Source: Myxococcota bacterium (GTDB lineage Bacteria > Myxococcota_A > Polyangia > Polyangiales > Houyiibacteriaceae). From it: 64,000 bases of DNA. Shown here piece after piece: positions 9,245 through 30,331 of the stretch. How positions within the stretch are numbered: the first letter of the stretch is position 1; the number at the start of each line of letters is the position of its first letter. The position numbers were made by a program, and so were the translations under genes. The notes under the pieces were generated by a model. The model worked only from the letters and a program-made list of their open reading frames with translations. It did not search any database and was not told the origin of the DNA. Location of the stretch: NCBI GenBank assembly GCA_028284955.1, contig JANQQS010000005.1, positions 70,007-134,006 on the forward strand, in the 5' to 3' direction.

Positions 9245-10723
9245 CTAAAGCAATAGACTCTCGCATCTGCCCTCTACGCATACCAGCGGGTCGCAACAAT
9301 CAGAATCCCCTTCGCACGCGCCACAAGCGCCATCCATGCAGGCTTGGCTGCTGTCGCACATGCCGCAGGTTTCACACGTGGTGGTGGTGGGAGGCGCTTC
9401 GCAGGTCTTGCCCGCTTCGAGAATCGCTCGGTCGTAGTGAATGGTGGCGCGGCCCGCGGCGGCGAAATCTTTCGCGAACACCGACCCGAACACTTCCAGC
9501 GCTCCGGCTCCGGTCACCACCGCTTGCGGCGCATAGAGATTGCCTACGAACGCGCTCCTCCCCGCCAAAGCAATCGCTTGGTCTCCGGCAACGTATACGC
9601 GCGTCGCGGCAGGGCGCTCTTCGGAACCGAACGTGATCGTTCCTGCGGAAACCAAGTTTCCTTTGATGAACACATCGAGCTCGCCTTTCGTGCCGAGCTC
9701 AACTTCGAGCGACCCGGCCATGGCGACGTTCTTTTCGACAAAGAGCGCGGTGCGACCGTTGACAACGAGTGTAAGCGCGCCGGCTCCCCCTACCGAATCG
9801 ACATAGAACCGACCGCAGGGCAGCTCCACGCGCTCTTCGCCTGCCACGTTGGTTAGCGCATCAGCATCGAGATCTGCTTCGTCGTTGTCGTTGTTTTCAG
9901 CTGCCGCGGCTACGAGCGCTGAAACATCGAGCAAATCCTCGGCATCACAGGCGCAGGGAGCGTCTACCTGAACGTCTTCACGCACAACCTCGCCGGCTAC
10001 CTCCAGCGAACCCGTGAAAGCCTGTAGCTCGCCCGGCGTTTGAATCAAATCGCGCCCGATAGACAGAGTCCCAGCTCCTACAAGAGTGCCATCGAGAGAA
10101 AAATCTCGTGAGATGTCCATCCCCCCCGCGGCGCCAAACCTCCCCGACGCAGAAACATCGCCGAGCACTTCGTGGTCTCCGCCGGCGAGGAACAGCCCCT
10201 TCGATCCAGCGACCGTCAACGACCCGCCCACGCTTATTTTGCCGCCAACACTGAACACATCGTTGGTTCCCACCGCACCGCCGCCCATATCGTCGGCGGC
10301 AAACGAACTATCGCTCGAATCCCCCGCATCGGTCGTGAGCGCGCCGGCCACCGACACCGTTCGACACGCGCAGAGCGCAGAGCGAAACGTGCGCGCGGCG
10401 ATTTCTCCGGCACACGTTTTGGTGATGCTCGTGCTGTCGCCGACCACCACGGGCGCTCCTGTCCCAGCGCAAAACGATTCGCGCGTGCCCCCGATCGTCG
10501 ACGCGCTCGCTTCCGCCGATTCTTCGCTGGCGCTCACCCCATCTACGCCCCCGTCTACGTCAGCCTGGGGCGCGGTGTCGCCGCATCCGCCAAACCCCAA
10601 GAGCGCCCCGGCAAACGCCACCAGCACCAAAGCGTCGCTTCGACACTGATTCCCTCGCTGATGTCTGCCGTTTGTGGAGAAAAAACCCGCGAAATAGCCC
10701 ACGCCAAGCTCCTCTGCCCGCAC
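9245..10723 (-). CDS. Lipoprotein with Gly/Ala-rich beta-solenoid-like domain and Cys-rich tail
   Basis: FGGC lipobox; repeated xAGxLxV strands, GNLYAPQA motif; C-terminal CETCGMC..CCDPLVC; start uncertain. Confidence 0.75.
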   Translation of the reverse strand: MRAEELGVGYFAGFFSTNGRHQRGNQCRSDALVLVAFAGALLGFGGCGDTAPQADVDGGVDGVSASEESAEASASTIGGTRESFCAGTGAPVVVGDSTSITKTCAGEIAARTFRSALCACRTVSVAGALTTDAGDSSDSSFAADDMGGGAVGTNDVFSVGGKISVGGSLTVAGSKGLFLAGGDHEVLGDVSASGRFGAAGGMDISRDFSLDGTLVGAGTLSIGRDLIQTPGELQAFTGSLEVAGEVVREDVQVDAPCACDAEDLLDVSALVAAAAENNDNDEADLDADALTNVAGEERVELPCGRFYVDSVGGAGALTLVVNGRTALFVEKNVAMAGSLEVELGTKGELDVFIKGNLVSAGTITFGSEERPAATRVYVAGDQAIALAGRSAFVGNLYAPQAVVTGAGALEVFGSVFAKDFAAAGRATIHYDRAILEAGKTCEAPPTTTTCETCGMCDSSQACMDGACGACEGDSDCCDPLVCVEGRCESLLL

Positions 10724-10821
10724 CGATCCCGCCGATCCAAACGGCGGCCTTCCGGGCTGTCGTACTGTGTAGGTGCGCGGACCCTCCCGAACGGGTCAAA
10801 GAAAGTTCAAACTTTTTCGAG

Positions 10822-12438
10822 CTACGCGTACGTCCACACGAGCCAAGCTGAAAGCGCAAGCAATGCGCCAGCTTGCACGCGAAACTGAGAATACCGAAAC
10901 TGAGAATACCGAAACTGAAAAAAACACGGTCGCGGCGCGGCGAGGCTCGGTTTCTCCTCAGGAATCGCTCGCGACGCTTCAGTCGACCGCGCGGGAGTCG
11001 CGAGCGCTCGCGCCGGTGGAGGCTCGGTCGCCAAGCTGACCGCAGCAATCACCACACACGTCAATGCAAAGAAGATTCCGCCAAGAATCGTCTCGTGAAT
11101 TTGGGGCCACCGCAAGAAGGTCCGCGAAACAAACGTCGCGACCGATATCGCCTGCCCGAACACCAACCCACAGAGTGCCCCGCGGGCGTTCGCGCGAGGC
11201 CAAAAGATACCCAGCACAAACAATGCGACGACAGGAGGAAACGCAAACGACAGCGCGGTTTGAAGATACGCAAAAATGTTCGCCGAGCGCGCCACCACGG
11301 GTACCCACACCACGCTGATCACCATGAACATCACGGTCACCACACGCCCGATTCTCGTCAGCGCGGCGTCGCTGGTATAGGGACGAAGCTTCTTGACAAA
11401 ATCCATGGTGACGAGGGTCGACGCAGAATTCAGCGTCGAGTCTATGCTGGACATGATCGCAGCCACCAGCGTCGCCAACACAAGCCCCCGAAGCCCGGTT
11501 GGCAAGATCTCAGTCACCAGGGTTGGAAACGCAAGGTCTGGGCGCGCCAAGTCGGGATAGAGATGGCGCGCAATGATGCCAGGAAAGATCATGGTAAAGA
11601 GCACCGACAGCTTGAGCAATCCATTGAGCAGCGCGCCCTTGCGCGCATGGTCCACATCCCGCGCGGCAAGCACGCGCTGCACCACAAACTGGTTGGTGGT
11701 CCAGAAGTACAAGTTGATGATGGGAATGCCCGTCAGCGCGCCGAGCCACGGCATGGTCGGATCGTCGCTCGGCTGAAAGAGCCGCAGCTTGGACGGCGGT
11801 GTGGCTTCGACCACCGCCTCCCACGAGCCCGCCGCCTCGAGAGCGAACAACGCAAGCACGCTCGTTCCAACAATCAAGACGACGGACTGAAACGTATCGG
11901 TATACACCACCGCCGAGAGCCCCCCTGCGGCGGTATAGAGCCCGGCAATCAATGCAAGCGTCGTGCTGGATAACCAAAGCGGAACGGATGGAAAAAAGAG
12001 CTGGATGACCAACGCACCCGCGTACAGCGTGGCCGCGGTATCGATGAGAATGTTGCCGGCAATAGTCAGCGCCGAAAAATAGTAGCGACAGACGGGGGAA
12101 AAGCGCTGCTCGAGATATTCCGGAATGGTGTAGAGTCTGGATTCTAGGTAGCGCGGCACAAAAAACGCCGCGAACACCACCATCACTACGGCGACCATCC
12201 ACTCGTAGTTGGCGACGGAAATACCCGAATCATAGGCCGCGCCAGCCAACCCGACGAGCGTAGTGCTCGACACGTTCGACGCGAAGAGCGAAAGCCCGAC
12301 CACAGGCCAGCCCAGGCGCCGGCTCGCGAGAAAATATTCTTCGGGGTTGTTCTGGCGCCTGGCAAAGCGAACACCAATCACCAACACGACCGCGAGATAC
12401 AGACCGACCAGCCCTAGGTCGATAGGATGCAGGTTCAA
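10822..12438 (-). CDS. Sodium:solute symporter (SSS/SLC5, sugar-type)
   Basis: EEYFLASRRLGW, SLFASNVSSTTLVGLAG, YTIPEYLEQRF, YTAAGGLSAVVYTD, AAIMSSIDSTLNS. Confidence 0.95.
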   Translation of the reverse strand: MNLHPIDLGLVGLYLAVVLVIGVRFARRQNNPEEYFLASRRLGWPVVGLSLFASNVSSTTLVGLAGAAYDSGISVANYEWMVAVVMVVFAAFFVPRYLESRLYTIPEYLEQRFSPVCRYYFSALTIAGNILIDTAATLYAGALVIQLFFPSVPLWLSSTTLALIAGLYTAAGGLSAVVYTDTFQSVVLIVGTSVLALFALEAAGSWEAVVEATPPSKLRLFQPSDDPTMPWLGALTGIPIINLYFWTTNQFVVQRVLAARDVDHARKGALLNGLLKLSVLFTMIFPGIIARHLYPDLARPDLAFPTLVTEILPTGLRGLVLATLVAAIMSSIDSTLNSASTLVTMDFVKKLRPYTSDAALTRIGRVVTVMFMVISVVWVPVVARSANIFAYLQTALSFAFPPVVALFVLGIFWPRANARGALCGLVFGQAISVATFVSRTFLRWPQIHETILGGIFFALTCVVIAAVSLATEPPPARALATPARSTEASRAIPEEKPSLAAPRPCFFQFRYSQFRYSQFRVQAGALLALSAWLVWTYA

Positions 12439-12461
12439 GTCAACGTACCTTCGCGCTCAAG

Positions 12462-12525
12462 TTCCCTGCAGCCATATCCCTGGCAGCCATATCCCTGGCA
12501 GCCATGTCCCTGGCGACCATGTCCC
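12462..12525. repeat. 15-bp tandem repeat (gcagccatatccctg) x~4, intergenic
   Basis: Directly visible between ligase stop and symporter start. Confidence 0.8.
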
Positions 12526-12546
12526 ACCGAGGCATATCTCTTAGAA

Positions 12547-13968
12547 TCAGGCAGCACTTGATTCGCGCGTGTATCGCACCATCTTACCGGGTGCATGCAG
12601 CCTTTCGACACGACGAACATGAAGTTCGAGGTTGCCAAACCGAGACCATATGTCGCGACGAATGCGCCGTTCGAATTCGTCGCGCGCATGGCCACCGTAA
12701 TCGGGCGGCGGAACCCAATCGATGTGGATCGCGCCGCATGGCTGGCCGCGCTGGCTTCCGTGGCTGTGCTGTATCATCGGACTGCACTGCCTCATCTGGT
12801 AGTGGAACGCGCCACCGCGCTCCATGATCGCCCCTAGTTCACGAGGATCGAACCGCTGGGTCTCGTCGCCGTCGGGGTGCTCAAAGAAATGATGCCCTAC
12901 GCGACCCGCGATATCGGTGATGGTCTGGCCCTTTGTTCCATCGGAACGTTCCGACCGCTCGAGCGTCCCCCAATCACCCGTCCGATAGCGGACGAGAGGC
13001 GTCAGCCAATTCAGCATACTGGTCACCACAAACTCCCCAGTGCCTTCATCCGATAGGGTGCCGTCTTCTCGCAACACTTCCACGTACATGCCGGGAAGCA
13101 CACGGAGCCCCCCTTTTGGTTGTTCTTCCTCTGCCACCCCTCCGGTTTCTGTGAGCCCATACACGTCGAGCACCGGGCAACAAAAGTGCTCGGCGAGGAA
13201 CGATCGGTAGTTGTCGTAGAGCGGCGAACTGCTGAGGCACAAAACAGCAGGCTGAATCCGCTGATCTGCTGGCCCCATTTCTTGGTCGAGCTCGGCAAGC
13301 GCCACCGCATGCCACGTCGAGGTGCTGATGATGGCCGGAGCATGTTTTCGTAATACGGCGACGGTTTCCCGATCCTCTTCATCGGTGCTGATGCCTGCGG
13401 CTTCCTCTTGGTTGGTCGGCGTGCGATTTCGTGAGAACTTGAACGCCTGAATCAACGCGAGCTCGTTCGCGGGCATGACGATCGCAGGCTTCGATCCTGC
13501 TACTTGATCGTCGAAGTGAGAGACGCGATTGTAGAGCTTCGCGACGCCCAACTGGCGTGACCTCAAGCGTTTCGCGGCGTTTGGATGCCGCGCAAAAATG
13601 CGGTCCCAGAACCCGTAGACCCTCGCATACATCGCGACCGAGTCGTACGCGACGTGAATCGAGCACCCGGTAAACGCGCTCGTTTCGGAAATCATCGTGC
13701 TCGAAGTCTCAGCTCCTCGGGCGACAAAGCTATCCCCATCGCGCTCCAAATCGGCGCGCGACACCAGTGGAAAATCCTGAACATGCAGTGCTGTCTCTCT
13801 GTGGGTGCGGGCAACATGCGCATAAAACGGCACGCGGTTGGCTACGTACTCAAGAAATCGGTTCGATCCTTCTTCGGTACTCAACAGGTGCATGCGATCC
13901 TGAAACTCCGAATACGCGTCGATCGAAGCCTTTAGATGAACCACCCTTCGGACATTCTCGTTTTGCAC
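12547..13968 (-). CDS. Phenylacetate-CoA ligase-like (PaaK/F390 synthetase, ANL superfamily) adenylating enzyme
   Basis: VPFY N-motif, P-loop ETSAFTG (variant of TSGxTG), DVYGLTETG, PLVRYRTGDWG, AGR hinge, PGKMVRY C-terminal Lys. Confidence 0.85.
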   Translation of the reverse strand: MQNENVRRVVHLKASIDAYSEFQDRMHLLSTEEGSNRFLEYVANRVPFYAHVARTHRETALHVQDFPLVSRADLERDGDSFVARGAETSSTMISETSAFTGCSIHVAYDSVAMYARVYGFWDRIFARHPNAAKRLRSRQLGVAKLYNRVSHFDDQVAGSKPAIVMPANELALIQAFKFSRNRTPTNQEEAAGISTDEEDRETVAVLRKHAPAIISTSTWHAVALAELDQEMGPADQRIQPAVLCLSSSPLYDNYRSFLAEHFCCPVLDVYGLTETGGVAEEEQPKGGLRVLPGMYVEVLREDGTLSDEGTGEFVVTSMLNWLTPLVRYRTGDWGTLERSERSDGTKGQTITDIAGRVGHHFFEHPDGDETQRFDPRELGAIMERGGAFHYQMRQCSPMIQHSHGSQRGQPCGAIHIDWVPPPDYGGHARDEFERRIRRDIWSRFGNLELHVRRVERLHAPGKMVRYTRESSAA

Positions 13969-13980
13969 CGCAGCATCCTT

Positions 13981-14084
13981 CGACAGTGTTCGGCGACATC
14001 ATTCAGCGACATCATTCAGCGACATCATTCAGCGACATCGTTCAGCGACATCGTTCAACGATGTGGTCTTGCGACATCGTCCTG
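13981..14084. repeat. 13-bp tandem repeat (cgacatcRttcag) x~8
   Basis: Five near-perfect and three degenerate units between the peptide gene and the ligase gene. Confidence 0.85.
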
Positions 14085-14138
14085 CGACCGTTCGAACTCG
14101 ATGAAGGCTCGGTCGAACGATCACAGGACCTCCTGAAA

Positions 14139-14291
14139 CTAGGCATCGACGGCAAGCAGGTCGCATTTTTGCAGAGTACCTTCGCCTCCGACGACTTGGC
14201 GTTTCTCTGTTTCGGTCAGCGCTTCGCCCAGGGATTCGAGAAGCTCTTTGGCGCGCTCGACTGATTCCATTTGCTTTTTCTTTCGGTCCAT
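14139..14291 (-). CDS. Putative RiPP precursor peptide (50 aa) with double-glycine-type leader
   Basis: AAGGAG RBS 5 nt before ATG; MDRKKKQMESVERAKELLESLGEALTETEKRQVVGG|EGTLQKCDLLAVDA. Confidence 0.65.
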   Translation of the reverse strand: MDRKKKQMESVERAKELLESLGEALTETEKRQVVGGEGTLQKCDLLAVDA

Positions 14292-14635
14292 CATGTCTCC
14301 TTGCAAACGATTCACGTGTGACCCGCGACTCGCTCCCCAGAGCGCCGCAAGCCCACGCAGCATGACTCTCTGAGCTTCGAGCGAGCGAAACAAGTCATCA
14401 ATCCGAACGCAAAGGTCAGCTCTGATGACCTTTGCCGCTCGGCCAATCTGTCGGCGGCCGACCCGTTGATGGACTAGCCCGGATATTTCACAAGATCCGC
14501 GAAGATCGCGCAGCGATTCGGAATCACAAACGGTTTTCGGATCGAAGGGAATACACTTTGTATTTTCGAGATTCGAAAACCGTTTGTGGTTTCGAAGGGC
14601 AAGCGAGGTTCATGGATTCTTGTGAAATATCCGGG

Positions 14636-16726
14636 CTAATCGTCGACGGGGTGGTCGCTCGCTGCCGTCAACACGGCCCATACTGCTTCGGATCGAGCGT
14701 TCATGACGCTCCCCGATCGCCGCACAACAAAAATGCCCATTTCAGGAGCTGTCGCAGATTCTGCAGAGTCGCCTGTTCGTTCCCCGTTTTGGTCATTGAT
14801 GACGGTCAGACCAGCGCCGTATACGCGCACAAACGTCGCAGGAAAGACGGCCGCGGCCAGATGGTTGCGCACCAGCAGAAGCGCTACATCGGCGTTCTCA
14901 ACCGGCCGTAACGTAGGTCCGGACGGTTCATCCGTGCGTCCCCACGCTGACCGCAGCCACGCCTGTTCGAGCTCGTCGTCTGTATGGTACGTCGCAAAGC
15001 AAAGCGCGCTCGGCACGCCCCCTGAGTCGCCGCATCGAGCAAGATATTCCCGCGTTGCAACGGCTACGAGCTTCTCTCGACGGATCAATATCGACTCAAA
15101 AAGATTCGAGCGCGCGTCGTCACACCAAATCGCAATGTCCACCGTTCCGTTCGCGAGGGCCGCGTGCGCTTCTCGGTCATTCATCGATGCACATTGAACG
15201 TCGATATCGGGGTGTGCTTTCGCGAGCTCGATTTGCTGCGCGCGCATCCACAGCGGCGCCACCGCGCCACACAGCGCCAGCGCCACCGGGCCCTCTTTAT
15301 CTCGATGAACGGCCACGACCTCTCGAAGCGCATCGTCGATGCGCCGAAACTCCCGAGTGATCGAGGCATGCAAAGCCCGTCCTGAACGCGTGGGTCGAGC
15401 TTGGCGGCCGACCCGCTCGAAAAGCGGAACGCCGAGTTGGCCTTCGAGCGTTTTGATCTGCTGACTCAATGCCGTGCGCGCAATGCCGCAGCGTGCCGCC
15501 GCGAGATCAAAGGTAGGCCCATGCGCCGCCTCCACGAACGTACGAAGCAAATCGTAGTTCACGGGCACGGGCTCAGCTCGCCGCCTCCGTGGCATAAACA
15601 CTTTGGATTTTCGCCCCTCGCCCTTCTCGAAGAGCATTCGCTGGTCGCAAAGATGATGATAGAGCGTCGGGTCTGGCCGAGTCAGCGCCGAAAAGTCTTG
15701 CGGATCCGCAAACCCAAACCGACACAGCGCAGCGAGTACGCCCGCCGACGCGGGAAGCTCAGACCGGAAGAGGTGGTGAGGATAGCGGCGGTCGTCGCGT
15801 CGCACAGCCGGCGCGCTTGCCACGGAGTTACCATGCCGCAGCACGTCTTGCTCCACGTTGCGCGGAACCGCACGAATGTTGAATGCACTGGTCAAGGCGG
15901 AGAAATCCAAGCCGCTGTCCCCGAAGTAGAACTTCCGCGCAGTCGCTCTGTGATCTGCGGGCGAACCCGTTTTTTGATCCGACGAAGCTCGCGCGCGTAG
16001 CACCGCGCTGGCATACACAAATGCGTTTTCTTTGCCCCCATGCATCGGCAAAAAATCGATATTGTGCTGCCCGGCAAATGGCTCCTCATGTTTGATGTCG
16101 GAGCAGGTCACCAGCACGTCGACCCCTTCGAGCGCCCGTACTGCGCGCTGTAGAGAAGCCAGTAGCCTCTGCAGATGCGCCCGATCAAAACCGCGCGTGT
16201 CCGCGTAGAAGCTCTGCTTGAGCTCGTGACATCGATCGTCGCCGGCGCGGATATTTTCCGCGTATTCATCGTGGGGCACCGCGCGAATGCCCGCGTCGCG
16301 AAACGCGCGAAACGCCGCGTCTCGAATGGCCTTATAGTCGAACTGCTTCAGCAGTTCGCGGCGCCAAGCCTTGTCGAGCCGATAGCCCCCCTTGCCATCG
16401 GCAAAGCGCACCGAAGAGCCGATGTCGCAGATGACAAAATCCATGGCCGGGATGCCAAAACGTTGCCAATCCCGTTTGAGCATCTTCCAGGAGCGCGCGG
16501 TCACGATCCCCACTCGTGCACCTCGCTCGCGTGCACGCTGTAGCGAAACGCATACTTCGGGCAAGCAAAGCTGTGACTGGTCGACGTCTTCAGACGAGAA
16601 GAAGTCGATATCTTCAGATGAGAGAAAATCGTCTCGCGGAGCCACCAAGGTCCAATCGAAACTCAATCCCAGCATGTCCTGCGCCGGTTCCACCGAATGG
16701 AACCGTAGCCGAAAAACTGCCGCCAT
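14636..16726 (-). CDS. Fusion: HAD IIB (sucrose-phosphatase-like) domain + LysR-type regulator
   Basis: HAD motifs SFDWTL, VTARS, DFLP..GK, FGDSGLD; LysR HTH LRTFVEAAHGPTFDLAAARCGIARTALSQQIKTLEGQLGVPLFER + substrate-binding domain. Confidence 0.85.
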   Translation of the reverse strand: MAAVFRLRFHSVEPAQDMLGLSFDWTLVAPRDDFLSSEDIDFFSSEDVDQSQLCLPEVCVSLQRARERGARVGIVTARSWKMLKRDWQRFGIPAMDFVICDIGSSVRFADGKGGYRLDKAWRRELLKQFDYKAIRDAAFRAFRDAGIRAVPHDEYAENIRAGDDRCHELKQSFYADTRGFDRAHLQRLLASLQRAVRALEGVDVLVTCSDIKHEEPFAGQHNIDFLPMHGGKENAFVYASAVLRARASSDQKTGSPADHRATARKFYFGDSGLDFSALTSAFNIRAVPRNVEQDVLRHGNSVASAPAVRRDDRRYPHHLFRSELPASAGVLAALCRFGFADPQDFSALTRPDPTLYHHLCDQRMLFEKGEGRKSKVFMPRRRRAEPVPVNYDLLRTFVEAAHGPTFDLAAARCGIARTALSQQIKTLEGQLGVPLFERVGRQARPTRSGRALHASITREFRRIDDALREVVAVHRDKEGPVALALCGAVAPLWMRAQQIELAKAHPDIDVQCASMNDREAHAALANGTVDIAIWCDDARSNLFESILIRREKLVAVATREYLARCGDSGGVPSALCFATYHTDDELEQAWLRSAWGRTDEPSGPTLRPVENADVALLLVRNHLAAAVFPATFVRVYGAGLTVINDQNGERTGDSAESATAPEMGIFVVRRSGSVMNARSEAVWAVLTAASDHPVDD

Positions 16727-16819
16727 GGCCGAGATTTTCGAATCGCCGAGCCGTCATATTCCCAGGGCCGATGAGCTCGTAGGCAAACGATCGGTCAGCC
16801 GAGCAACTCGCACGATCAC

Positions 16820-16885
16820 CCGTTGCATAACCGACGGTCGCATAACCGACAGTCGCATAACCGCCCGTTGCATAACGACAGTCGC
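16820..16885. repeat. 15-bp tandem repeat (gcataaccgacrgtc) x4 upstream of HAD-LysR
   Basis: Directly visible. Confidence 0.75.
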
Positions 16886-16886
16886 G

Positions 16887-18398
16887 CTATCGACGACGAC
16901 GTCGCCGCAGCGCAAACCCTACCGCCACACAAGCCATCCCCCAGACTCCGAACGCCACGGAGTGTGACTTGCGTCCGCTCGACTGCAGACCAACTGCGCA
17001 GCCGCCTCCCGAATCGCCCGAACCATCGGCTGACCCCGCCCCGCTTCCTCCATCCACGCCAGACGAACCGTTTTCTCCCGACTCGCCAGGCGATCCAGGG
17101 TTGCGCGCACTGCAGTCGGCGCGACATCGCCCTGATTCAGAATCGGAGTTGAGCGAACCGTCGTCGCATGCTTCACCATCATCGGTGACCGCATCGCCGC
17201 AAGACGGATTGCGACAAGTGGAGCGACAGCGGTCAGGATCGAAATCGCTGATGTCCGCGCCGCTATCGCATTCTTCGTCGCCTTCGACCTTGCCATCGCC
17301 GCAGCGAACGCAGCTGCCCTCTCCGGGCGCGCAAAACCGTGAGCCTACCCGTTCGGCGCAGAACTGACCCGTCGGACAGTCGCAATCGCCAGCGCATCGT
17401 GAAGTGCATGCCCCCATCAAGCACACATGACTTTCGCAATCCTTGCCCGTAGAACAGGCTGCGCCGACCGCCCCCGGCCCGGGCGGCCAACAGACTCCCG
17501 CCGGCGCCGCACCCACCGGCAAACACGAAGTGCCCCCGCCGCATTGCGACGCCGCGCCGGTACGGTCACACGCGCGCGAACAATACTGCCGAGGCGCACC
17601 GGTGACGCCCTGACACACCAGCCCCGTAGCGCAACGCATCATGGCATTGCATTCCGTACCGATGCCGCCCGGCGGAACAGGCATACAGCTCATGCCCGTG
17701 CACGCCGATCGGTAACATTGTGTATCTGCAGAACATAACGCCGCGCCCACAGGATAGTTCGCCACCGCGCCCGCCTTGTCGGCATCGCTCAGCGAAGCTC
17801 GGTCGCCCACCTGAGCAAACATCATCGCATCGGCTCGTGCGCTATGGCCAAGCCCGAGCGCATGACCCAACTCATGCAGCAGCACGCCCTCCAGATTGGC
17901 GCCACTGCCCCATTGGTGGTCGACGCCGTTGATCACAATGTCGGTTTCGATCAGCGTCGTATTGTCGTTGGGGTTGAGAAAGCGAATCGCCGCCCCCAGC
18001 GCCCCCGCCCCCGAATGCGCGCTCGCGCCCGGCGGATTCCATGCGCTTTGTTCCCACGACACCACGTTTCGACCATCGCGTACGCTGAGCGACGACGACG
18101 CTGCCGCCTCGCCTGCATACGACGCGCGAAACCCGCTCCCCGCCGCGTTCCACTGCTCGATCGCTCGCTGAAGCGCCGCCACCGCTCGATCGGCGCCCTC
18201 CTCCGCGTTCGTCAGGTCGATATAAAACGGCACCGGCGTGGCGCGCCATTTGCGGTTGTCGAGTTTGAAATCTTGAGCGGCCGACTGAAGCGGAAGGAGG
18301 CACCCCAACCACGCGACCGCGATCCAAATGAAGCGAGAACGCTCGAACGCTCGCGCCAGGCGCTTGGCCCATCGATTCGCAACTTCTGATCGATCCAT
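16887..18398 (-). CDS. Matrixin (M10) metalloprotease with Cys-rich/DUF4215-type repeats and MYXO-CTERM
   Basis: HELGHALGLGH + Met-turn AMM; CGDGKVEGDEECD repeats; GGGCAV..TM..LRRRRRR. Confidence 0.92.
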   Translation of the reverse strand: MDRSEVANRWAKRLARAFERSRFIWIAVAWLGCLLPLQSAAQDFKLDNRKWRATPVPFYIDLTNAEEGADRAVAALQRAIEQWNAAGSGFRASYAGEAAASSSLSVRDGRNVVSWEQSAWNPPGASAHSGAGALGAAIRFLNPNDNTTLIETDIVINGVDHQWGSGANLEGVLLHELGHALGLGHSARADAMMFAQVGDRASLSDADKAGAVANYPVGAALCSADTQCYRSACTGMSCMPVPPGGIGTECNAMMRCATGLVCQGVTGAPRQYCSRACDRTGAASQCGGGTSCLPVGAAPAGVCWPPGPGAVGAACSTGKDCESHVCLMGACTSRCAGDCDCPTGQFCAERVGSRFCAPGEGSCVRCGDGKVEGDEECDSGADISDFDPDRCRSTCRNPSCGDAVTDDGEACDDGSLNSDSESGRCRADCSARNPGSPGESGENGSSGVDGGSGAGSADGSGDSGGGCAVGLQSSGRKSHSVAFGVWGMACVAVGFALRRRRRR

Positions 18399-28606: not shown

Positions 28607-30331
28607 CTAGCGCTCGGAAAGGTCGACAGCCATCGTCGTCGGATGACTGCTCGACGGTTTTTTAGGCCGAGCCGCGCTGATCTCTTTGCCACATCGCTGC
28701 CACCATGTATCCGCGTCTTGTTGGGTCCAGTGCGGTATGGGTACGCGCTCGAGGGCTTCGGCCAGGGCTCGTCCGGAAGGCGGACGGTCGCCAGGGCGCT
28801 TTTGAAGGCAGGCCATAATTACCGCCTCGAGCTCTGGGGGAATCGATTCGCCACCTCCTGATAACGGGCGTTCTGAACACAGAAGTTCTGAAAACGGACG
28901 CGGCGTCGACTGAAGATGGTGCGAGCAGACCTCCATGATGGTGTCCCCATCAAAGACGTGACGGCCTGCTAAAAGATAGTAGCCCACCGCGCCGAGCGCG
29001 TAGAGATCGCTTCGGGGAGACACTTTGCCGGGAACTTGAATCGCTTCGGGGCTCAGATAGTGGGGCGTTCCCATCACGAGATTTGGGTCGGTGCGATCTG
29101 TAGCGTCGGCGTCGATGCTTTTGACGAGACCGAAATCGAGGACTTTGGTCACATCGCGCTCGCCTCCCTGGTCGACGAGCATGATGTTGCTGGGTTTGAT
29201 GTCTCGGTGGATCAAGCCGGCCGCATGCGCCTCGTCGAGCGCACCCGCGGCGTGCCGAAGGATGTGTACGACGCGGGCGGGAGGCTGCCGGCCGATAGCG
29301 TCGACGATCTCCTGCACCGTCGCACCGTGTAAGAGCTCCATCGCGTAATAAAGGAGCCCATCGGGGGTCTTTCCATAGTCATAAATCCTGACGGTATGGG
29401 GATGGGTGAGTTTTGCAGTGAGCTGAACCTCGCGGCGAAATCGTTCTTGTGCCGTGACGCTCACGCGTTCTTTTCGCAGCAGCTTGATCGCTGTGGGGCG
29501 TTTCAGCATCCCATGGGTAGCCTGAAACACGACCCCCATTCCGCCTTCACCGAGCTTGTGCTCGAGGATGTACTGCCCGAGGCGTTTGATGTCGCGAACT
29601 TCTTCGCGAAGCCCGTGAATGACTCGAGAGGCCAGCGAGGCAAGGGCAATGACCAACGTCCACCACATCGTCGTGACGGAAGCCGAAGTGATCGCCACGA
29701 CTTGATTCGACTCGGGAGGCTGCTCCCAGCCGAGCGCCCTCCAATCGATCTGCGTGTCCGAATGAAGATAGTGCAGGTACATCGCGATCACGAGCGGAAC
29801 CCCCATCGCGACCCCGAGCAGGAGCGTATGCCGGGCGGAGCTCGGCACGAAGACCGCGCGAGCAAACAAAAGAAACGAAAGGACGAAGGCGGTGCTGGTG
29901 TCAGCTCCCGCCTCCGTGGGGATATGCACCCCCACCGCGATGTACAGCCCTGTCGTCGCCAGTACTCCCGCGGTTTCAATAACGACGATGGTTTTGACCC
30001 CGTGCGCGCCTTCCCGGCAAACCAACCACATCTGAGCGCAGGGGAGAATCGCAAACAACTGAAACAAAAAATCGGGGCTCCCAAGTTCATCGACTAGCGT
30101 GCCGAAAGCGAGCGCAATCAAAAGCCGACACGCAATCGCAGTCACTCCGATCAGCGCGCCGACCTGTCCGAACGCTGCCACTCGCTTTTGCAGGAACGCC
30201 CGCGACTCTACTTGCTGCAGCTCTGCTTGCTGCAGCTCTGCTTGCTGCAGCTCTGCTTGCTGCAACTCTGCTTGCTGCGACTCTGCTTGCTCTCCATGCA
30301 TCCCGATTCTCTGGTTCTCGGAAGAGGTCAC
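28607..30331 (-). CDS. Multi-TM Ser/Thr protein kinase
   Basis: LGEGGMGVV, AIK, IHRDIKPSN, DFG, YLSPE; N-terminal TM helices; (AELQQ)n repeat; GTG at 30331 overlaps upstream TGA. Confidence 0.93.
   Translation of the reverse strand: MTSSENQRIGMHGEQAESQQAELQQAELQQAELQQAELQQVESRAFLQKRVAAFGQVGALIGVTAIACRLLIALAFGTLVDELGSPDFLFQLFAILPCAQMWLVCREGAHGVKTIVVIETAGVLATTGLYIAVGVHIPTEAGADTSTAFVLSFLLFARAVFVPSSARHTLLLGVAMGVPLVIAMYLHYLHSDTQIDWRALGWEQPPESNQVVAITSASVTTMWWTLVIALASLASRVIHGLREEVRDIKRLGQYILEHKLGEGGMGVVFQATHGMLKRPTAIKLLRKERVSVTAQERFRREVQLTAKLTHPHTVRIYDYGKTPDGLLYYAMELLHGATVQEIVDAIGRQPPARVVHILRHAAGALDEAHAAGLIHRDIKPSNIMLVDQGGERDVTKVLDFGLVKSIDADATDRTDPNLVMGTPHYLSPEAIQVPGKVSPRSDLYALGAVGYYLLAGRHVFDGDTIMEVCSHHLQSTPRPFSELLCSERPLSGGGESIPPELEAVIMACLQKRPGDRPPSGRALAEALERVPIPHWTQQDADTWWQRCGKEISAARPKKPSSSHPTTMAVDLSER

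What the first reader, a model, noticed from the sequence alone, without database searches (positions are those of the whole stretch)
10822..16726. Candidate new RiPP system: double-Gly precursor peptide + stand-alone PaaK-like adenylating enzyme
Seen: a 50-aa ORF with a strong RBS has leader EALTETEKRQVVGG, resembling the ELSxxELxxVxGG consensus, then a 14-aa core EGTLQKCDLLAVDA. It is directly followed by an ANL/PaaK-like ligase with a variant P-loop (TSAFTG), and no paa catabolic genes are nearby. A co-oriented HAD-LysR regulator lies upstream and an SSS transporter downstream. Known: ANL enzymes adenylate carboxylates; GG leaders are removed by C39 peptidase transporters (none in this window). 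Inference: the ligase activates a core carboxylate (Glu, Asp or C-terminus) for macrolactam or thioester formation with the N-terminus, Lys or Cys, or it acylates the peptide. I know of no established RiPP class with this as sole maturase.
Basis: partly seen in the sequence, partly recalled or inferred. Interest (0 to 1): 0.85.

Follow-up and report, generated by a model that had tools for sequence, protein, structure and literature searches.

The report
Double-glycine peptide paired with PaaK-like ligase
A short secretion-leader peptide gene sits directly in front of an unusual ATP-using ligase gene, the pair is repeated about a dozen times in this genome and recurs in unrelated soil bacteria, so it looks like an undescribed way of making modified peptides.

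Summary
On the minus strand lie a HAD-LysR fusion (14636-16726), a 50/51-aa ORF with an AGGAG site (14139-14294), a PaaK-like ligase (12547-13968) and an SSS symporter (10822-12438).

The pair is not a chance neighbourhood:
- This genome has 12 ligase paralogs (23-32% identical to the window copy). Eleven have a co-oriented upstream 49-68-aa ORF with a Shine-Dalgarno site, a textbook double-glycine leader and an 8-20-aa variable tail. The twelfth lies 1.3 kb from one.
- A peptide profile finds only these 11 ORFs genome-wide.
- Family-level ligases on metagenome contigs carry the same kind of upstream ORF, there with 6-residue tails, under purifying selection.
- Distant PaaK-like loci do not: 5 of 148.

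LysR regulators flank 6 of 12 loci and SSS symporters 4 of 12. One complete C39 exporter lies elsewhere.

An acidic residue sits at tail position 8 in 7 of 11 peptides. I infer leader-guided adenylation of a tail carboxylate. My seven searches found no paper describing such a pairing.

The parts
14636..16726 (-). HAD (sucrose-6-phosphate-phosphatase-like) domain fused to a LysR-type regulator, one 696-aa frame. It is the likely regulator of the cassette.
   Evidence: LysR genes flank 6 of 12 paralogous loci. The other five are plain 309-349-aa LysRs, so the HAD fusion is unique to this copy.
14297..14301 (-). Shine-Dalgarno-like AGGAG, 5 nt before the second ATG of the peptide ORF
   Evidence: All 11 peptide ORFs have such a site before one start codon.
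14184..14294 (-). Leader part of the precursor peptide: a basic N-terminus, a helix-like stretch, then ...LTETEKRQVVGG, the double-glycine motif
   Evidence: alignment A5 of 11 paralogous peptides: G37 invariant, G36 and A15 nearly invariant. GC by codon position is 0.62/0.41/0.62, like the ligases at 0.65/0.48/0.66.
14139..14183 (-). 14-residue variable tail (core) EGTLQKCDLLAVDA plus the stop codon. Asp is at tail position 8 and Ala at the C-terminus.
13989..14061 (.). 13-bp tandem repeat (5.6 copies) in the 170-bp spacer between peptide and ligase. It is probably a genome-wide habit and not part of the mechanism.
   Evidence: There are 1272 such arrays genome-wide, mostly of period 15 or 18.
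12547..13968 (-). PaaK/F390-synthetase-like adenylate-forming (ANL) ligase, 473 aa, with a variant P-loop TSAFTG. The YRTGD, GR and C-terminal catalytic Lys (K462) positions are kept.
10822..12438 (-). Sodium:solute symporter (SSS family), co-oriented downstream. Membership in the system is uncertain.

Best explanation
This is one cassette of a previously undescribed ribosomal-peptide system. A roughly 50-aa precursor carries a double-glycine leader and a short tail. A dedicated PaaK-type adenylate-forming ligase is encoded immediately downstream.

The proposed steps are all inferred:
1. The ligase binds the conserved leader.
2. It uses ATP to adenylate a carboxylate that sits a fixed number of residues after the GG. 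In this genome that is mostly the Asp or Glu side chain at tail position 8. In the 8-residue tail here and the 6-residue tails of relatives it is the C-terminal carboxylate.
3. The acyl-adenylate is captured by an amine, giving an amide. The amine could be a small-molecule partner, or the new N-terminus after leader removal, which would give a 6- or 8-residue macrolactam.
4. The GG leader is cut off and the product exported by the genome's single C39-peptidase ABC exporter, which is encoded elsewhere with its membrane-fusion and outer-membrane partners.
5. The adjacent LysR-type regulator controls each cassette.

Shown: the gene pairing, its repetition, its conservation and selection, the leader motif, the ANL catalytic motifs, the position bias in the tails, and the presence of the exporter.

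Inferred: binding, the site of adenylation, the nucleophile, and the role of the product (signal or antibiotic).
For: Repetition within the genome:
- There are 12 ligase paralogs (14 matched stretches, 12 genes). They are 23-32% identical to the window copy.
- On a quick tree they form one side of a branch, SH-aLRT 98, against 52 other family members.
- 11 of 12 have a co-oriented upstream ORF with a Shine-Dalgarno site, a leader of the form [LMI][ST]xx[ED][LM]xx[IVLM]xGG and an 8-20-aa tail.
- The twelfth ligase lies 1282 bp from the peptide of its closest paralog.

Specificity:
- A profile of the 11 peptides, run on 113,874 open frames of the genome, returns exactly these 11 at E <= 1.4e-14. 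The next hit has E = 0.053.
- The same GG-ORF rule is met at 5 of 148 distant PaaK-like loci.

Other organisms:
- Of 13 assessable metagenome loci whose ligase scores >= 200 bits, 8 carry a GG-type ORF upstream. These are L132, L133, L134/L135, L136, L137 and L139/L140. Four pass the fixed rule and the rest were judged by eye. All their tails have 6 residues.
- Three more (L142, L144, L145) carry roughly 100-aa upstream ORFs. In two of them (L144, L145) the C-terminal region has a related NLRxG-like motif. L142 has only ...FNNLG....

Selection: between L132 and L133, 41 tail codons split into 15 identical, 14 synonymous-only and 12 amino-acid-changing. The 90 nt after the stop are 30% identical.

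Enzyme:
- ANL motifs are kept. Y328-R-T-G-D332, G355 and K462 are invariant in the 12 paralogs.
- The profile matches solved PaaK (4r1l, E = 1.4e-29) and the PaaK-like ligases 6siw and 6wuq.

Tail pattern:
- Asp or Glu is at tail position 8 in 7 of 11. Shuffling within tails gives p = 0.00014 for that position and 0.0014 after taking the best of 12 positions.
- An eighth tail is exactly 8 residues long.
- The C-terminal residue is Ala in 6 of 11 (p = 0.004) and Ala or Gly in 8 of 11 (p = 0.0014).
- The 6-residue tails of relatives contain no Asp, Glu, Lys or Cys, so their only carboxylate is the C-terminus.

Export: there is one complete outer-membrane factor, C39-ABC and HlyD locus. Its C39 domain has the Q-x5-C-G stretch. 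That this stretch holds the catalytic Cys is recalled.

Fusions: some relatives fuse the ligase to a WD40 propeller, a protein- or peptide-binding fold.
Against: - No direct evidence of binding or modification.
- Three of 11 tails here lack a carboxylate at position 8. The position-8 and C-terminal patterns were noticed first and tested afterwards, on 11 related sequences.
- Ligase and leader divergence are not significantly correlated (Mantel r = 0.18, p = 0.13).
- The P-loop is degenerate in the window copy and in several paralogs, so some copies could be inactive.
- No leader protease is encoded at any locus. A macrolactam with the new N-terminus would need cleavage before the cytoplasmic ligase acts, which fits poorly with cleavage coupled to export.
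- Two family-level metagenome loci (L138, L141) show no small ORF and instead have radical-SAM neighbours.
- LysR plus importer plus ligase is also the usual layout for uptake and CoA activation of an organic acid.
Confidence: 0.55

Rival explanations
1. The ligase activates a small carboxylic acid, for example an aryl-acetic or fatty acid taken up by the neighbouring symporter and sensed by the LysR. It transfers that acid onto the peptide, most plausibly onto the N-terminal amine exposed after GG cleavage. The product would be an N-acylated short peptide.
For: - PaaK-family enzymes normally activate small acids. The closest solved relatives are PaaK and small-molecule ester- or amide-forming PaaK-like ligases.
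- SSS or amino-acid permeases flank 5 of 12 loci and LysR or RpiR regulators 7 of 12.
- At L132 and L133 the pair sits beside a radical-SAM enzyme (a lysine-2,3-aminomutase-like enzyme by my reading of its sequence; Pfam names only Radical_SAM) and an adenylation-carrier didomain, which suggests that a small building block is supplied.
Against: - No nucleophilic side chain is conserved in the tails. The 6-residue tails have no Lys, Cys or Ser, and only some have Thr.
- It does not explain the acidic residue at tail position 8, nor the fixed tail length of 6 in relatives.
- N-terminal acylation needs leader removal inside the cell, and no protease is at the loci.
- The window's SSS belongs to a ubiquitous family.
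Confidence: 0.15
2. Ubiquitin- or Pup-like tagging. The variable tail is a pro-piece that is cut off after GG. The ligase adenylates the exposed C-terminal glycine of the conserved part and joins it to a lysine or an amine of a target.
For: - The conserved part is the leader, and the part after GG is short and hypervariable in this genome.
- Relatives end in GG-Q plus five hydrophobic residues.
- Some ligases are fused to a WD40 protein-binding propeller.
- That ubiquitin precursors carry tails after GG, and that Pup ends in GGQ or GGE, is recalled knowledge.
Against: - The leader matches the export-type double-glycine consensus at positions -4, -7, -8 and -12 (the consensus is recalled).
- The only C39 domain in the genome is part of an exporter.
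- The tails are not neutral. Position 8 is acidic and the last residue small more often than shuffling gives. In relatives the tail length is fixed, and the tail is identical between loci whose DNA has diverged.
- Twelve separate modifiers, each with its own regulator, would be odd.
Confidence: 0.07
3. There is no enzymatic link. The peptides are unmodified exported pheromones or bacteriocin-like peptides, the ligases are ordinary acyl-CoA ligases of a catabolic or regulatory module, and the two are kept together only by shared regulation or duplication as a block.
For: - Block duplication alone would keep neighbours together.
- The Mantel test shows no significant co-divergence.
- The genome also has a second, orphan family of GG peptides without ligases, so GG peptides can stand alone here.
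Against: - The paralogs are only 23-32% identical to the window copy, and the flanks differ at every locus, yet the pair stays adjacent and co-oriented.
- The pairing also holds in unrelated metagenome contigs of 47-70% GC with different flanks.
- Tails of 6-14 residues are too short for unmodified bacteriocins. This is a judgement, not a test.
- No CoA-dependent follow-up enzymes lie at the loci.
Confidence: 0.13
4. The small ORF is not translated, and the conserved stretch is a regulatory element or chance.
For: No RNA or protein data exist for this genome. No RNA-holding run was listed, which is no evidence either way.
Against: - Eleven paralogous ORFs share a motif at the protein level, a Shine-Dalgarno site and coding-type GC periodicity.
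- Synonymous changes dominate in the conserved part between L132 and L133, while the spacer is randomised.
Confidence: 0.03

Closest known systems
Phenylacetate-CoA ligase PaaK (solved structures 4r1l, 2y4n/2y27)
   Same: Same fold family by sequence: the profile of the 12 paralogs matches 4r1l at E = 1.4e-29 and 2y27 over profile positions 54-459. It shares the N-terminal ...VPFYR... region, the YRTGD motif and the C-terminal Lys.
   Different: It scores 36-42 bits against PaaK models whose cut-offs are 646-700 bits. The P-loop is degenerate. No paa catabolic genes lie at any of the 12 loci. It is always paired with a peptide gene.
PaaK-like ligases that form esters or amides without CoA: NatL2 (6siw), AjiA1 (6wuq), BagE/FevW
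   Same: These are the next best solved or curated relatives. They show that PaaK-type enzymes can pass the acyl-adenylate to a non-CoA nucleophile. This rests on the title and abstract start of PMC7204872 in the listing; the rest is recalled.
   Different: Those enzymes act on small aromatic acids in polyketide-like or shikimate-derived pathways. None is known to use a ribosomal peptide. The scores here are far below their family cut-offs (29-71 bits against 800).
Lasso-peptide cyclases (asparagine-synthetase-like, McjC type) with their B protease and RRE
   Same: The logic is the same: ATP-dependent adenylation of an Asp or Glu side chain 7-9 residues after the leader cleavage site (recalled). 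Here Asp or Glu is at position 8 in 7 of 11 tails.
   Different: The enzyme superfamily differs (ANL, not asparagine synthetase). No B-type protease or PqqD-like RRE lies at the loci. The genome's single weak Transglut_core3 match and its single PqqD match are on other contigs. The part after the acid is only 2-12 residues, mostly too short to thread. The leader is of the GG type.
Other RiPP enzymes that activate a peptide carboxylate: ThiF-like MccB/PaaA, asparagine-synthetase-like C-terminal nitrile or amide synthetases (PesC), PEARLs, and ATP-grasp ligases of graspetides
   Same: These use ATP to activate the C-terminal or a side-chain carboxylate of a leader-bearing precursor. For PesC I read the abstract of 10.64898/2026.03.11.711119. 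For the others I saw only titles in the listing; the rest is recalled.
   Different: None belongs to the ANL/PaaK superfamily. My searches found no paper that pairs an ANL or PaaK-like ligase with a precursor peptide.
Double-glycine leader peptides processed by C39-peptidase ABC exporters (class II bacteriocins, ComC-type pheromones, type II lantibiotic leaders)
   Same: The leader has hydrophobic residues at -4, -7 and -12, an acidic residue at -8 or -9, and GG at -2 and -1. Weak sub-threshold hits of two family peptides fall on the leader parts of the ComC and Mersacidin models. A complete exporter is present in the genome.
   Different: The exporter is not at the loci. The tails are far shorter (6-20 residues) than unmodified bacteriocins. 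No curated peptide family matches.

Membership tests
ANL (adenylate-forming) superfamily, PaaK/F390-synthetase branch | Significant sequence match to solved or curated members over both domains | tested here: met
   The profile of the 12 paralogs hits PaaK 4r1l at E = 1.4e-29 and 2y27 over positions 54-459. For the single window protein, Pfam AMP-binding scores 27.8 bits, below the 29.9 cut-off.
ANL (adenylate-forming) superfamily, PaaK/F390-synthetase branch | Core motifs: Ser/Thr/Gly-rich P-loop, YxxTE, YRTGD, GR hinge, C-terminal catalytic Lys (motif names recalled) | tested here: inconclusive
   YRTGD, E274, G355 and K462 are invariant and R356 is nearly invariant. The P-loop is degenerate in the window copy (TSAFTG) and in several paralogs, but canonical (TSGTTGxP) in metagenome relatives.
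Phenylacetate-CoA ligase PaaK (enzyme of the paa pathway) | Score above the equivalog cut-off of TIGR02155 or NF041878 | tested here: not met
   36.2 bits against a cut-off of 646.3, and 42.3 against 700.
Phenylacetate-CoA ligase PaaK (enzyme of the paa pathway) | Neighbouring paaABCDE-type catabolic genes | tested here: not met
   There is one PaaA_PaaC match in the genome (36.6 bits) on contig C109, which carries no ligase. The neighbours of all 12 loci are listed. Caveat: the control search did not ring in E. coli.
Double-glycine (GG) leader peptides | Leader consensus with hydrophobic residues at -4/-7/-12, acidic at -8/-9, and G-G (or A-G) at -2/-1 | tested here: met
   11 of 11 family peptides pass one fixed rule.
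Double-glycine (GG) leader peptides | Cleavage and export by a C39-peptidase ABC transporter | not testable with these tools
   One complete OMF/C39-ABC/HlyD locus exists on contig C97, and its C39 domain has the Q-x5-C-G stretch. Whether it cleaves these peptides needs an experiment.
RiPP (ribosomally synthesised, post-translationally modified peptide) system | Precursor gene with leader and core next to a modifying enzyme, conserved across homologous loci | tested here: met
   Own genome: 11 of 12. Family-level metagenome loci: 8 of 13 with a GG-type ORF, plus 3 with a longer small ORF. Distant PaaK-like loci: 5 of 148.
RiPP (ribosomally synthesised, post-translationally modified peptide) system | The enzyme modifies the core in a leader-dependent way | not testable with these tools
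Mass spectrometry is needed.
RiPP (ribosomally synthesised, post-translationally modified peptide) system | RiPP recognition element (PqqD-like) in the enzyme or a neighbour. This is common but not obligatory. | tested here: not met
   The ligase and the HAD-LysR give no PqqD hit. The genome's only PqqD match is on contig C178. Pfam detects only part of the known RREs.
Lasso peptides | Asp or Glu at core position 7-9 | tested here: inconclusive
   7 of 11 tails have Asp or Glu at position 8, and 3 of 11 have no carboxylate there. Relatives have 6-residue tails without acids.
Lasso peptides | Asparagine-synthetase-like cyclase, plus a transglutaminase-like leader protease and an RRE in the cluster | tested here: not met
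   None occurs at the 12 loci. The single weak Transglut_core3 match (26.6 bits) and the single PqqD match lie on other contigs.

The most novel reading that the evidence does not exclude
A new RiPP class in which a PaaK-type ANL ligase is the only maturase. Guided by a double-glycine leader, it closes a small macrolactam between the residue right after the GG site and a carboxylate 6 or 8 residues on: the Asp or Glu-8 side chain, or the C-terminus of 6- and 8-residue cores. That would be a convergent, lasso-like ring made by a different enzyme superfamily. The twelve diverged cassettes in this one genome, each with its own core and half of them with their own LysR regulator, would then be a set of orthogonal peptide signals or antibiotics.
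Probability: 0.15. Interest if true: 0.9.

Novelty: new variant of a known kind. Interest (0 to 1): 0.72.

Why it matters
- **New enzyme chemistry for peptides.** Adenylate-forming ligases of the PaaK type are known for small acids. If one acts on a leader-bearing ribosomal peptide, it adds a new enzyme superfamily to peptide maturation. It would also offer a simple two-gene route to C-terminally or side-chain-modified, possibly cyclic, short peptides.
- **A ready-made comparison set.** The twelve diverged cassettes in one genome allow study of how leader, core and enzyme specificity diverge.
- **Scope.** The family has at least 141 further cluster representatives in public data, all annotated as phenylacetate-CoA ligase or hypothetical. 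The finding would therefore re-annotate a sizeable group.
- **Biology.** The per-cassette LysR regulators hint at peptide-based signalling in Gram-negative-type bacteria, where such systems are little known.

Tried and rejected
**Searches for the family in other genomes**
- No match at family level in 40 relatives. The best hit was 143.5 bits and partial, and I saw no GG ORF upstream of those hits.
- No match at E <= 1e-60 in 400 genomes of the same phylum, 400 other genomes (401 searched, counting G428 itself) of the phylum of G428, or 300 other genomes (301 searched) of the phylum of G429. Only 4-5 candidates per genome were scored in those three searches, so this means 'not found in those searched'.
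- The genome-contig scan returned only distant PaaK-like genes, with a best score of 178.7 bits against the paralog profile. I used them as the control set.
- The word-based protein search found only 5 weak relatives.

**Tests that gave nothing**
- Mantel test of ligase against leader divergence: r = 0.18, p = 0.13, not significant.
- Promoter and terminator scans of 10700-16900: counts no higher than in shuffles.
- Expression: no RNA holder listed.

**Ideas considered and dropped**
- Tandem repeats as part of the system. They are genome-wide: 1272 arrays, 2.1 per 10 kb. Near the cassettes there are 13 arrays in 27,246 bp, 4.8 per 10 kb, which is too few to build on.
- A LysW-like amino-group carrier. 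No follow-up enzymes lie at the loci.
- A microcin-C-like stable adenylate. An ANL acyl-adenylate is a labile anhydride (recalled chemistry).

**Literature.** Seven searches gave no paper that links a PaaK-like or ANL ligase to a precursor or GG-leader peptide. I read the outline and abstract of 10.64898/2026.03.11.711119 and three passages of PMC9811515. All other papers I saw only as search listings. Supplementary files were not consulted and could hold genome-mining tables that list such pairs.

- The search of earlier findings.
- Complex prediction.
- The protein-atlas search, which did not hold the sequence.
- Structure prediction.
- The look-up of encoding contigs, declared closed and not called.

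Full report
**What is in the window.** Four co-oriented genes lie on the minus strand.
- A 696-aa frame at 14636-16726 joins a HAD/sucrose-6-phosphate-phosphatase-like domain to a LysR regulator.
- A small ORF lies at 14139-14294.
- A 473-aa PaaK-like ligase lies at 12547-13968.
- An SSS symporter lies at 10822-12438.

The small ORF has AGGAG 5 nt before its second ATG. It encodes a basic N-terminus, a helix-like stretch ending ...LTETEKRQVVGG, and the 14-residue tail EGTLQKCDLLAVDA.

The ligase is a weak match to every curated model: Pfam AMP-binding 27.8 bits against a cut-off of 29.9, the NCBIfam DVU_1553 family 71 bits against 300, and PaaK 36-42 bits against 646-700. Its P-loop reads TSAFTG. 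The one addition is a 170-bp spacer between peptide and ligase, which holds a 13-bp tandem repeat.

**The pair is repeated in the same genome.** The window lies in a 6.07-Mb assembly of 223 contigs, 96.6% complete.
- The ligase has 11 paralogs there, on contigs C108, C146, C188, C26, C166, C165, C72 and C112, and three on C198. They are 23-32% identical to the window copy.
- Eleven of the 12 ligase genes have a co-oriented small ORF ending 0-170 bp before the longest ligase frame.
- Each small ORF has one start codon preceded by a Shine-Dalgarno-like site, giving products of 49-68 aa.
- All share the layout MKK...AExLLxxLExxLSxEELxxxxGG followed by 8-20 variable residues.
- GC by codon position in the 11 ORFs (0.62/0.41/0.62) follows that of the ligases (0.65/0.48/0.66).
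- The twelfth ligase, on C198, has no peptide of its own. It lies 1282 bp from, and divergent to, the peptide of its closest paralog. An RpiR-type regulator sits between them and an amino-acid permease beyond.

**The pairing is specific.** A profile of the 11 peptides, run on all 113,874 open frames of the genome, returns exactly these 11 at E <= 1.4e-14. The next hit has E = 0.053 and belongs to a different GG-peptide family. I then fixed one rule: G at -1, G/A/D at -2, two of three hydrophobic residues at -4/-7/-12, an acid at -8 or -9, a tail of 5-22 residues, and a frame ending within 450 nt upstream on the same strand. The rule is met at 11 of 12 own ligases and at 5 of 148 assessable distant PaaK-like loci from the two collection scans. 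A stricter pattern gave 0 of 148.

**Other organisms.**
- A profile search of 1.84 billion cluster representatives listed 9 of this genome's copies at 510-601 bits. It then listed 141 further proteins from 410.7 down to 203.4 bits, mostly full-length matches.
- The named ones come from Pyrinomonadaceae, Longimicrobiaceae and Proteobacteria assemblies and are called hypothetical, AMP-binding or phenylacetate-CoA ligase.
- Several carry a C-terminal WD40 propeller (P0016, P0019, P0025, P0039, P0059), some are tandem double ligases, and one is fused to a PEP-mutase domain.
- A metagenome scan gave 14 ORFs scoring >= 200 bits against the paralog profile, of which 13 have upstream sequence.
- Eight of the 13 (six distinct loci, since L134/L135 and L139/L140 are near-duplicates) have an upstream co-oriented ORF of the same kind. 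These end ...DLKNLRGG or ...DLKNFRGG then QILLVA (L132, L133)...DLQKFQGG then RLTIIA (L136)...DLQKVRGG then QVVLFQ (L137)...KLKNLRDG then QLTVIL (L134/L135), and ...FRGG then QLTVIL (L139/L140). Four pass the fixed rule and the others were judged by eye.
- Three more loci (L142, L144, L145) have ORFs of about 100 aa. In L144 and L145 the C-terminal region carries a related NLRxG-like motif; L142 has only ...FNNLG....
- Two loci (L138, L141) show none, and have radical-SAM neighbours.
- Between L132 and L133 (ligases 71% identical) the last 41 peptide codons are 15 identical, 14 different but synonymous and 12 amino-acid-changing. The 90 nt after the stop are 30% identical. So the peptide is under purifying selection.

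The family was not found in 40 relatives, 400 genomes of the same phylum, or 700 genomes of two other phyla (with limited scoring depth). On a quick tree the 12 copies form one side of a branch with SH-aLRT 98 against 52 other members. This fits an expansion within this lineage. The tree is unrooted, drawn at its midpoint, and the careful search did not finish.

**Neighbours.**
- LysR regulators flank 6 of 12 loci, divergent to the peptide in three and in the same direction as the pair in three. Only the window's copy is fused to HAD.
- Five of these six LysRs (not the C72 copy) are each other's near relatives, together with three LysRs elsewhere in the genome.
- SSS symporters flank 4 of 12 loci and an amino-acid permease one. 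The window's SSS has homologs 47-61% identical among the 120 listed, in several named phyla. I therefore treat it as a doubtful member.
- No other enzyme recurs at the loci.
- At L132 and L133 the pair sits with a radical-SAM enzyme (lysine-2,3-aminomutase-like by my reading of its sequence; Pfam names only Radical_SAM) and an adenylation-carrier didomain, in different arrangements.
- The genome has one C39 peptidase domain, inside a complete outer-membrane-factor/C39-ABC/HlyD locus on contig C97. Its C39 domain has the Q-x5-C-G stretch.

**What the ligase is.**
- The profile of the paralogs matches solved PaaK structures (4r1l, E = 1.4e-29; 2y27 over nearly the whole length) and the PaaK-like ligases 6siw and 6wuq.
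- Relatives score best, but far below cut-off, on DVU_1553-family, BagE/FevW, FlxY and F390-synthetase models.
- YRTGD, the glutamate of the TE motif, the GR hinge and the C-terminal lysine are invariant or nearly so.
- The P-loop is degenerate in this genome's copies but canonical (TSGTTGxP) in relatives.

It is thus an adenylate-forming enzyme of the PaaK branch, but not a PaaK. The equivalog cut-offs and the paa gene context are both not met.

**What the tails say.** The tails are hypervariable but not random. Asp or Glu stands at tail position 8 in 7 of 11. Shuffling each tail gives p = 0.00014 for that position and 0.0014 when the best of 12 positions is taken. One more tail is exactly 8 residues long. 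The last residue is Ala in 6 of 11 (p = 0.004) and Ala or Gly in 8 of 11 (p = 0.0014). These patterns were seen first and tested afterwards, on related sequences, so they are suggestive only. In the metagenome relatives every GG-type tail has 6 residues and no Asp, Glu, Lys or Cys, so the C-terminus is its only carboxylate. The common theme is a carboxylate at a fixed distance (6 or 8 residues) from the GG site.

**Mechanism.** I commit to leader-guided adenylation of that carboxylate by the ligase, followed by amide formation, then leader removal and export by the C39 exporter in trans, under LysR control. All of these steps are inferred. The nucleophile is open. One option is an external amine, which the aminomutase and carrier genes at L132 and L133 would fit. 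The other is the new N-terminus, which would give 6- or 8-residue macrolactams reminiscent of lasso rings. The second option needs cleavage before cyclisation, and no protease is at the loci. The rivals, each weighed in its own entry, are N-acylation with a small acid, ubiquitin/Pup-like tagging through the GG end, no enzymatic link, and a non-translated ORF.

**Comparison with what is known.** Carboxylate activation on ribosomal peptides is known for four enzyme types.
- Asparagine-synthetase-like enzymes: lasso cyclases (recalled) and C-terminal nitrile formation (abstract read).
- ThiF-like enzymes (listing only).
- PEARLs (listing only).
- ATP-grasp ligases (listing only).

I found no report of an ANL or PaaK-type enzyme in this role in seven full-text searches. 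I did not see supplementary tables. No curated Pfam or NCBIfam model matches the peptides. The only hints are sub-threshold hits of two family peptides to the leader parts of the ComC and Mersacidin models.

**Limits.**
- No structure, co-fold or expression data could be obtained.
- The census outside this genome rests on 13 loci.
- The chemistry is inference from sequence patterns.

Noticed in passing
window 10880-10918, 12463-12525, 13989-14061, 16825-16885: Short tandem repeats (periods 13-15, 2.6-5.6 copies) sit in the intergenic spacers between each gene of the cassette. Genome-wide there are 1272 such arrays, mostly of period 15 or 18. Some lie in frame inside ligase paralogs, for example a repeated five-residue insert in the C112 copy and repeats in the N-termini of the C166 and C165 copies.
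   Followed up: partly
G000 contigs C164:14658-14909, C205:28331-28531, C188:12195-12419, C153:96614-96847, C179:26602-26967 and 28792-29046: A second, different family of double-glycine-leader small ORFs. Four of the six have Cys-containing tails of 17-19 residues; the two on C179 lack Cys, and one of those has a 27-residue tail. No ligase and no recurrent neighbour was found between contigs (the two C179 sites lie 2 kb apart and overlap). They may be further cargo of the single C39 exporter.
   Followed up: partly
P0016, P0019, P0025, P0039, P0059; loci L134/L135 and L139/L140: Family ligases fused to a C-terminal WD40 beta-propeller. The two fused ligases whose loci could be inspected also have a GG peptide upstream.
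   Followed up: partly
L132:14-2533 and L133:4361-7216: A radical-SAM enzyme (lysine-2,3-aminomutase-like by my reading of its sequence; Pfam names only Radical_SAM) and a 644-648-aa adenylation-carrier didomain accompany the peptide-ligase pair on two contigs, in different gene orders. A TIR-domain gene (L132) and an AraC regulator (L133) are also next door.
   Followed up: partly
L142:2576-2878, L144:2174-2503 and 2541-2858, L145:1259-1603: More distant family ligases are preceded by ORFs of about 100 aa, two in tandem at L144. These share a helical N-terminal part. Those at L144 and L145 carry an NLRxG-like motif before a 10-13-residue tail (L142 has only ...NNLG...). No Pfam or NCBIfam family matches them.
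   Followed up: partly
window 14636-16726: The HAD/S6PP-like domain fused to LysR is a single frame and is unique among the six cassette-linked LysRs, which are otherwise 309-349 aa. An internal Met just before the LysR part could also allow separate translation.
   Followed up: no
window 9245-10723 and 16887-18398: The cassette is flanked by two large frames with Cys-rich C-terminal parts and no NCBIfam match. The second contains an HELGHALGLGH stretch that looks like a zinc-metalloprotease motif (the motif is recalled).
   Followed up: no
P0093, P0099, P0101 and other 850-1010-aa representatives: These proteins match the ligase profile in 3-4 stretches, apparently as two ligases in tandem. 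This echoes the two neighbouring ligases that share one peptide on contig C198.
   Followed up: no
control: The PaaA_PaaC family search did not ring in the E. coli control genome, so absence calls from that search should be read with care.
   Followed up: no
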